A stretch of 64,000 nt of DNA, taken from contig OZ024740.1 of the NCBI GenBank assembly GCA_964016885.1, positions 155,620,001 through 155,684,000 of the forward strand, written 5' to 3'. A model generated the notes under the pieces. It was not told the origin of the DNA, searched no databases, and saw only the letters and a list, made by a program, of their open reading frames with translations. The DNA is from Eledone cirrhosa. Lineage: Eukaryota. Every line of letters begins with the position of its first letter. Position 1 is the stretch's first letter. Positions 33,237-33,611 of this stretch are shown piece after piece. The position numbers and the translations under genes are program-made.

Positions 33237-33388
33237 ATTATTTAACGATCGTTTCTAGGATATATATGTGTTAGAATTGGCATGCATATTCAACAGATCT
33301 ATGTACAACAAAATTATACAAAATTATACAAACTATCAAAATTAAATATACATACCAAACACATATATATGCCATCTTCAGAAATAAT
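33237..33388 (-). ncRNA. Type I hammerhead ribozyme with very long stem II (family F2)
   Basis: ATTATTT-CTGAAGA-TGGCATATATATGTGTT...AACACATATATATCCTA-GAAA-CGATC-GTT^-AAATAAT. Stem I is 7 bp and stem III is palindromic. Confidence 0.75.
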
Positions 33389-33394
33389 TCTATT

Positions 33395-33517
33395 ATTTTA
33401 CTAGTCTCAAGAGGCTTAGCTCTGTTTCTCGACCGTTATATCGCGTGACTATCTCCCCCTCCGCCTTTTGGGATTCTTTCTCACGTCGTGTAGACGCGTT
33501 CTTGAGACTAGTAAAAT
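33395..33517. repeat. 18-bp perfect inverted repeat enclosing a CpG-rich 87-bp core
   Basis: ATTTTACTAGTCTCAAGA ... TCTTGAGACTAGTAAAAT. Confidence 0.8.
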
Positions 33518-33523
33518 GAGGTA

Positions 33524-33611
33524 TCCTCTTGATAAGTCGGCAGACCTCGCAAGGACTCTATATCTTTGATATATTGTTTTTGTTTATGCCACGAAACTAC
33601 GTAGTCGAGGA
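33524..33611 (+). ncRNA. Type I hammerhead ribozyme, U3-A8 core variant
   Basis: TCCTC-TTGATAA-GTCGGCA...TGCCAC-GAAA-CTACGTA-GTC^-GAGGA. Stem I is 5 bp and stem III is the palindrome ACTACGTAGT. Confidence 0.72.

What the first reader, a model, noticed from the sequence alone, without database searches (positions are those of the whole stretch)
33237..33611. Two divergent hammerheads of opposite polarity flanking an 18-bp inverted-repeat CpG-rich core
Seen: a minus-strand hammerhead (33237-33388) and a plus-strand hammerhead (33524-33611) point away from each other. Between them is ATTTTACTAGTCTCAAGA...TCTTGAGACTAGTAAAAT enclosing an unusually CpG-rich 87 bp, all embedded in TA satellite. Inference: this is either a single ~370-bp ambisense ribozyme cassette, recalling viroid-like RNAs with a ribozyme in each polarity and possibly with a bidirectional promoter, or a chance juxtaposition of two PLE ends. 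The second F2 copy at 52970 lacks this partner.
Basis: partly seen in the sequence, partly recalled or inferred. Interest (0 to 1): 0.75.

Follow-up and report, generated by a model that had tools for sequence, protein, structure and literature searches.

The report
One-off fusion of two Penelope repeats
The two back-to-back hammerhead (self-cutting RNA) motifs are real, but they belong to two different, very abundant jumping repeats that are joined only at this one spot, likely by an accident of insertion, so this is not a dedicated two-way ribozyme element.

Summary
Both hammerhead motifs, the 18-bp inverted repeat and the CpG-rich core are present as described, but they do not form a unit. 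The left half (family A, about 9,800 core matches) is the hammerhead-bearing pLTR of an autonomous Penelope-like element (PLE) with a telomerase-like RT. The right half (family B, about 8,500 matches) is part of a 591-bp tandem retrozyme-like repeat. The CpG core is ordinary B sequence. The A-B junction and the 18-bp repeat each occur once in the 3-Gb genome. Each family routinely inserts as a head-to-head pair of its own arms, so divergent hammerheads are normal here; 43 of 48 sampled two-armed insertions have one short and one long end, whereas this locus has two short ends. The repeat is a 13-nt fold-back of B's cDNA end, joined to A's palindrome centre through ATTT. Most likely a B arm inserted beside an A palindrome and removed its second arm. 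Co-insertion of two RNAs at one break is the main rival. Cleavage, expression and promoter activity are untested. The scan earlier described head-to-head PLE insertion on other DNA of this genome. Ordinary: interest 0.2.

The parts
28279..33173 (.). TA-rich satellite, left flank (target sequence of both families)
33174..33388 (-). Family A arm: pLTR fragment of an autonomous Penelope-like element, from its fixed 5' head (start of hammerhead stem I) to its 'short' outer end
   Evidence: differs from its best copies only by a private 3-nt duplication
33237..33388 (-). Type I hammerhead motif A; predicted cut between 33244 and 33243 (GUU); palindromic stem III
   Evidence: cleavage untested
33389..33398 (+). 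Centre of the A palindrome: 3-nt spacer plus the first 7 nt of A's second (sense) arm; the last 4 nt (33395-33398) are shared with B
   Evidence: same centre type as ordinary A palindromes L013, L034, L037, L042
33395..33412 (-). Left arm of the 18-bp inverted repeat: 13 nt of B sequence copied back from 33500-33517, plus 5 nt of microhomology with B's own 5' end
   Evidence: unique in the genome; fold-back origin inferred
33408..33682 (+). Family B arm: first 275 bp of the 591-bp tandem monomer, from its preferred 5' end to its 'short' outer end
   Evidence: 100% identical to copies in L002, L113, L129, L130
33413..33499 (+). CpG-rich 87 bp: the 5' part of the B monomer; possibly its promoter or leader (inferred)
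33500..33517 (+). Right arm of the 18-bp inverted repeat: ordinary internal B sequence
33524..33611 (+). Type I hammerhead motif B with U3-A8 core; predicted cut after 33606 (GUC); palindromic stem III
   Evidence: cleavage untested
33683..34050 (.). TA-rich satellite, right flank

Best explanation
This locus is a single-copy, head-to-head fusion of one arm of a Penelope-like element's pLTR (family A) with one arm of a different tandem hammerhead repeat (family B), likely made when a B copy inserted beside an existing A palindrome and removed A's second arm. Shown: each half is a separate high-copy family, and the junction reads A arm, A centre, 4-nt shared ATTT, 13-nt inverted B piece, B arm. 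Inferred steps: (1) A first inserted in the TA satellite as its usual two-armed palindrome. (2) A PLE enzyme nicked the TA tract to the right, primed on B RNA at B's short start site and copied to B's 5' end. (3) The cDNA end folded back through 5 nt of microhomology and copied 13 nt, which made the 18-bp repeat. (4) It then annealed through ATTT to a break at A's palindrome centre. This path and the next two rivals share the main conclusion, an accidental fusion (about 0.9 together).
For: Halves occur separately, split at window 33398-33408; only the self-match spans both (1 of 68). Core words: 8,498 B matches and 9,777 A matches. Junction patterns hit once each. 20 of 21 A arms with this same end continue into A's own second arm. 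Of 94 distinct A heads listed, only this one reads on into B (17 fetched; the rest judged by eye from 13 letters). In 94 loci taken in genome order, 43 of 48 two-armed insertions are short+long and none short+short, while single arms are common (35) and of either type, so this locus is not one normal insertion. Adjacent A and B ends lie 17-49 bp apart in L119, L117 and L066. Short fold-backs and multi-step templated joins occur at ordinary inner ends: L158, L035, L004, L142, L150, L161, L203. The A centre here matches ordinary A centres. The A arm has one private change and the B arm none. Precedents: PLE protein extends both strands from two RNA start sites (PMC11167929); L1 insertions cause deletions and join to pre-existing breaks (PMC7058536).
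Against: The order of events is inferred; no empty allele or intermediate was seen. One mutation against none is weak evidence of age. Fold-back at a solo inner end was found in only 1 of 35 solo arms. Flank-satellite continuity is uninformative: 0.76 here against 0.36-0.99 in 13 other insertions. B's autonomous partner was not identified, so PLE-driven mobility of B rests on its shared architecture. The pattern searches cover only A-head junctions within 30 nt of two B words, so other A-B fusions are not excluded. The hammerhead families show no clear two-sided covariation.
Confidence: 0.5

Rival explanations
1. Co-insertion: the two ends of one break in the TA satellite were primed on two different RNAs (A and B). 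Both cDNAs ran to their RNA 5' ends, each folded back briefly, and they annealed through ATTT.
For: Both arms stop at their family's preferred 5' end. For A this is the start of stem I in most short copies. For B, 14 of 68 inner ends lie near monomer position 1 (rough, because loci were picked for the hammerhead word and some ends run up to about 23 nt further). Both arms are young. Both strands are extended in vitro (PMC11167929).
Against: No other head-to-head join of two families was found in 94 loci. The short+long rule (43 of 48) points to one complex serving both ends, and short+short does not fit one complex. The A and B stem III palindromes pair poorly with each other: -1.8 kcal/mol against -10.0 and -12.9 for the homodimers.
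Confidence: 0.27
2. Two complete two-armed insertions stood side by side, and a later microhomology-mediated deletion between their centres removed both long arms.
For: Each side keeps what looks like its own inversion junction plus 7 and 13 nt of the second arm. Short+short is one of the expected products. Adjacent A and B insertions exist.
Against: It needs two breakpoints within 7 and 13 nt of both centres, although B's centre has an 87-nt loop. The B arm has had no time to mutate. The B fold-back junction occurs nowhere else, and the simplest reciprocal product is absent.
Confidence: 0.14
3. Assembly or long-read chimera inside a 10-kb satellite.
For: The junction is single-copy and lies in low-complexity DNA.
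Against: The junction has the templated, microhomology anatomy of natural centres, both arms end at biological end sites, and the A arm carries a private variant.
Confidence: 0.05
4. A functional ambisense ribozyme cassette with a bidirectional CpG promoter, akin to a viroid-like RNA.
For: There is one hammerhead motif per strand, and the fusion places two presumed transcript starts back to back (inferred). Bidirectional pLTR promoters were proposed for rotifer PLEs (PMC3846280).
Against: It is single-copy among thousands of separate halves. There is one cut site per strand, so no unit-length monomer could be released. The fold is branched and about 60% paired, not a rod. The core and the right repeat arm are plain B sequence.
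Confidence: 0.03

Closest known systems
Insertion unit of endonuclease-bearing Penelope-like elements (PMC8557442 passages; PMC3846280 passages; PMC11167929 parts 1-2 of 4)
   Same: Partial tandems, an adjacent inverted 5'-truncated copy, a tail on only one end, microsatellite targets, a hammerhead in the pLTR, a telomerase-like RT. Family A shows these.
   Different: The tails here are 130 nt (A) and 166 nt (B) against the 30-40 bp described. At this locus the two inverted arms come from different families.
PLE minimal and variant type I hammerheads (Cervera and de la Pena 2014, PMC4209133, parts 1-2 of 4)
   Same: Palindromic stem III for dimer folding, long stem II, the U3-A8 core variant, and pairs of motifs 100-700 bp apart on opposite strands are all reported there.
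   Different: Stem II is much longer here. Motif A has U17 and lacks G10.1-C11.1. The parts I read do not say whether opposite-strand pairs were ever from different families.
Metazoan non-LTR retrozymes (PMC7229834 passages; bioRxiv 10.64898/2026.07.22.740005 part 1 of 5)
   Same: Family B is a tandem repeat, with only short ORFs, with a type I hammerhead in each unit and 41% GC.
   Different: The monomer is 591 bp against about 300 bp. B arrays are often two-armed inverted insertions with two fixed ends. Circular RNA was not tested.
Retrotransposon-mediated deletion and bridging by L1 (PMC7058536 passages)
   Same: A cDNA end joins a second, pre-existing break and sequence between is lost.
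   Different: Different enzyme class; here the process is inferred from one germline locus.
Viroid-like RNAs with a ribozyme in each polarity (recalled; no paper read for this)
   Same: One hammerhead motif per strand within about 370 nt.
   Different: Linear, single-copy genomic DNA, one cut site per strand, branched fold, both halves traceable to DNA repeats.

Membership tests
Penelope-like element (family A) | pLTR linked to a single ORF with a telomerase-like RT | tested here: met
   827-aa frame upstream of an A pLTR in L109 and 759-aa frame downstream of one in L107; A's long end is followed by the ORF leader; best fold match TERT 3du5, E 1.1e-8; profile hits a retron RT, E 0.0023. Pfam gave no hit on the ORFs themselves.
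Penelope-like element (family A) | C-terminal GIY-YIG endonuclease | tested here: inconclusive
   Invariant Y691, Y704, G706, R715, H719 and upstream cysteines in 75 aligned proteins (motif identity recalled). Pfam GIY-YIG hit 1 of 7 homologues at E 0.016, below cut-off.
Penelope-like element (family A) | Inverted 5'-truncated copy and a tail on one end only | tested here: met
   23 of 26 two-armed A insertions are short+long; 3 have one non-standard end.
Penelope-like element (family A) | Insertion in microsatellite | tested here: met
   Outer ends abut TA repeats in the loci printed.
Non-LTR retrozyme (family B) | Head-to-tail tandem units, each with a type I hammerhead | tested here: met
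   591-bp period; arrays of up to about 5 units per arm (L125, L142).
Non-LTR retrozyme (family B) | Non-coding | tested here: met
   Longest ATG ORF is 75 aa in one 2.5-unit stretch, L143.
Non-LTR retrozyme (family B) | Expressed as self-cleaved monomeric and circular RNA | not testable with these tools
   Needs RNA data and a cleavage assay.
Type I hammerhead ribozyme | Conserved core and three stems | tested here: met
   Core columns 0.994 conserved against 0.95-0.96 elsewhere in 96 distinct A and 42 distinct B sequences; B has U3-A8 in 41 of 42 and G10.1-C11.1 in 42 of 42. No Rfam match.
Type I hammerhead ribozyme | G10.1-C11.1 pair closing stem II (motif A) | tested here: not met
   C-A mismatch in 88 of 96 sequences, U-A in 7 (this copy is U-A), C-G in 1.
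Type I hammerhead ribozyme | Self-cleavage | not testable with these tools
   Needs an in vitro assay of monomer and dimer.
Ambisense viroid-like RNA | Recurs and replicates as one unit | tested here: not met
   Junction found once.
Ambisense viroid-like RNA | Unit-length monomer released from multimers of each polarity | tested here: not met
   One copy, one cut site per strand, satellite on both sides.
Ambisense viroid-like RNA | Rod-like, highly paired fold | tested here: not met
   Branched, 59-60% paired on either strand.
MITE with 18-bp terminal inverted repeats | Repeated unit bounded by the inverted repeats | tested here: not met
   The left-arm junction is unique; the right arm is internal B sequence.

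The most novel reading that the evidence does not exclude
The locus is a frozen record of one chromosomal break repaired with two different RNAs: an autonomous PLE pLTR transcript primed on one DNA end and a retrozyme transcript on the other. That would show that Penelope machinery moves retrozymes in vivo and can fuse foreign RNAs head to head, creating new two-ribozyme, two-promoter elements.
Probability: 0.27. Interest if true: 0.5.

Novelty: new member of a known kind. Interest (0 to 1): 0.2.

Why it matters
As a cassette it does not matter: it is one rearranged insertion among many thousands. It warns that opposite-polarity hammerheads, a common flag for viroid-like RNAs, are routine products of PLE insertion in animal genomes. 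The families matter a little more: the strict one-short, one-long end rule (43 of 48, none short+short or long+long) in both an autonomous PLE and a tandem retrozyme fits the two-start-site model from in vitro work and supports PLE-driven mobility of retrozymes.

Tried and rejected
Rfam: no hammerhead match; only satellite-driven microRNA noise, also on L195 and L196. Sequencing runs: 20 of 24 listed rows hold part of the stretch, and no RNA holder was listed. Eight runs were laid: one gave no reads, and in the other seven no listed piece bridged the junction; a hole proves nothing, so this is not used as evidence. Reciprocal junction pattern: 0 matches. A genome-wide wide-gap A-to-B co-occurrence search could not be run, so distant A-B junction types remain open. 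Candidate second chimeras were checked and rejected: L115 is a solo B arm beside a complete small palindrome of a third family, L160 appears to be a head-to-tail jump, L141 and L128 are solo arms next to other repeats, and L203 is a template jump into A's own leader. Flank-satellite similarity was inconclusive. Pfam and PDB sequence searches on the single ORF found nothing useful. The bacterial promoter scan found nothing and does not apply to this genome. B's autonomous partner was not seen in 50 B loci. A cap-derived extra G at A's head was considered, but the letters before the head are too mixed. A nested insertion of B into A's centre was rejected because B's outer end faces the satellite, not A. 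Six literature searches (listings and abstract starts, then the passages cited) showed no description of a two-family head-to-head PLE fusion; the library lacks most subscription papers and no supplements were read.

Full report
Observation. The 510-bp island sits in a TA satellite spanning 28279-38429. The 18-bp inverted repeat is exact. The core has 9 CpG in 87 bp, reached by 2 of 3470 sampled non-satellite windows. Rfam does not recognise either motif. Against shuffles, A folds at z -5.84 (0 of 200 as good) and B at z -1.85 (10 of 200). The hammerhead fold costs 4.3 and 1.1 kcal/mol over the minimum-energy fold.

Two families, one junction. Searching the 3.0-Gb own genome with the island gave 68 matches from 40 scored of 397 candidates; only the self-match crosses query positions 229-236. 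Core words give 8,498 matches for the right half, B, and 9,777 for the left half, A; these count tandem and inverted copies separately. A and B share no match longer than 13 nt. A junction pattern with one mismatch, an A-head-to-B-start pattern with a 0-30 gap and the B fold-back pattern each hit only this locus. The simplest reciprocal product is absent. Of 21 A arms with the same end, 20 continue into A's own second arm. One search found 169 further A-head matches and listed 100, which are 94 loci after removing both-strand duplicates; by eye only this one continues into B, and I fetched the 17 least clear.

Family A. Long divergent pairs of A motifs enclose PLE sequence. An 827-aa frame in L109 lies upstream of an A pLTR, and in L107, L094 and L175 the long A end is followed by the ORF leader, a word of which has 367 matches. 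The protein has 119 homologues with invariant RT-like and C-terminal residues (motif names recalled). Its model (pLDDT 85.6) matches telomerase RT best, and the profile hits a retron RT weakly. Pfam does not hit the ORF and gives GIY-YIG only below cut-off in 1 of 7 homologues. A is therefore a PLE pLTR; the endonuclease assignment is by motif.

Family B. B is a 591-bp tandem monomer with 41% GC and a longest ORF of 75 aa in the one stretch checked. The CpG core and the right repeat arm are its first 110 bp. Its hammerhead has U3-A8 in 41 of 42 distinct sequences and G10.1-C11.1 in all 42. U3-A8 is a described PLE variant (PMC4209133). No autonomous partner was seen in 50 B loci.

Insertion rule. 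I took 94 loci in genome order from the first listed hits on contig C1 (50 B, 44 A; long A pairs fetched and one tandem duplicate left out). Both families have two fixed outer ends, 130 nt apart in A and 166 nt in B. Of 48 two-armed insertions, 43 have one short and one long end, 5 have one non-standard end, and none is short+short or long+long; 35 are solo arms of either type, and 8 A hits run on into the PLE 3' UTR. This fits the in vitro finding that a PLE protein extends both DNA strands from two RNA start sites that bound the tail (PMC11167929) and the described architecture (PMC8557442; PMC3846280). Hammerhead pairs on opposite strands 100-700 bp apart were already reported (PMC4209133).

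The junction. From left to right: A short arm ending at its usual head (33388), a 3-nt spacer, 7 nt of A's second arm, of which the last 4 nt are shared with a 13-nt inverted B piece, then the B short arm from its preferred 5' end. The 18-bp repeat is these 13 nt plus 5 nt of microhomology. Similar short fold-backs and repeated template jumps occur at ordinary inner ends (L158, L035, L004, L142, L150, L161, L203). Short+short shows that the locus is not one normal insertion. The B arm is identical to several copies and the A arm has one private 3-nt duplication, and A and B ends lie 17-49 bp apart at three sampled loci. The most economical path is a solo B insertion whose cDNA end joined a break at the centre of an existing A palindrome (0.5), as L1 cDNA can join a second break (PMC7058536). 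Co-insertion of two RNAs (0.27) and later deletion (0.14) remain open; flank comparison did not separate them.

Against the cassette. The unit is single-copy, has one cut site per strand, folds as a branched structure about 60% paired, and the two stem III palindromes do not pair with each other. Expression, promoter activity and cleavage were not tested. Motif A lacks G10.1-C11.1 and has U17, so its activity is doubtful; PLE hammerheads are reported to cut weakly in vitro.

Papers seen: PMC4209133 and PMC11167929, parts 1-2 of 4; bioRxiv 10.64898/2026.07.22.740005, part 1 of 5; PMC8557442, PMC3846280, PMC7229834 and PMC7058536, passages only. No supplements were read; those of the bioRxiv paper are closed and could list related retrozyme families. 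Viroid features are recalled.

Verdict. Observation confirmed; ambisense cassette not supported; accidental fusion of two Penelope-type arms about 0.9. New member of a known kind, interest 0.2.

Noticed in passing
L194-L202 (A head, e.g. L195:1541-1722): A roughly 180-bp SINE-like repeat sits at exactly the same point, the 5' end of hammerhead A's stem I, in 9 of 94 listed A-head loci; 8 of 9 have duplications of 10-19 bp of differing length, so these look like independent insertions into a hot spot.
   Followed up: partly
Families A and B, 94 loci on contig C1: Strict end rule: 43 of 48 two-armed insertions have one short and one long end, none two of a kind; tails are 130 and 166 nt, far longer than the 30-40 bp described.
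   Followed up: yes
window 37185-37249 (-) and 43280-43345 (+): Two further type I hammerhead motifs of a third family with a canonical core; no PLE ORF between them by tblastn.
   Followed up: partly
window 34052-34710: 3' fragment of a non-LTR retrotransposon ORF (about 220 aa open) ending in a (GAT)n tail; RTE-like by recall.
   Followed up: no
window 41709-41766 and 44812-44869: Two identical tRNA-like matches, probably heads of a tRNA-derived SINE.
   Followed up: no
window 53988-54019; L066, L122, L162, L164, L188: Another small TA-targeting palindromic family with two fixed ends about 72 nt apart.
   Followed up: partly
Public runs X2, X5, X7 against window 33180-33680: Runs under different organism codes hold both halves separately at near identity; X5 has a 621-nt contig that wraps the 591-bp B monomer with no differences. 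Close relatives, mixed samples or horizontal transfer cannot be told apart.
   Followed up: partly
L203:1821-1984: Centre of an A insertion holds 144 nt of the element's own ORF leader in antisense, a long template jump within the same RNA.
   Followed up: yes
L098:2906-9243 and L105:3353-4844: ORFs of other, diverged PLE-like families lie between A arms; nested insertions or shared pLTR not resolved.
   Followed up: no
L057, L058, L075, L176: An older B subfamily at 72-82% identity keeps the U3-A8 core where aligned and the same end sites.
   Followed up: partly
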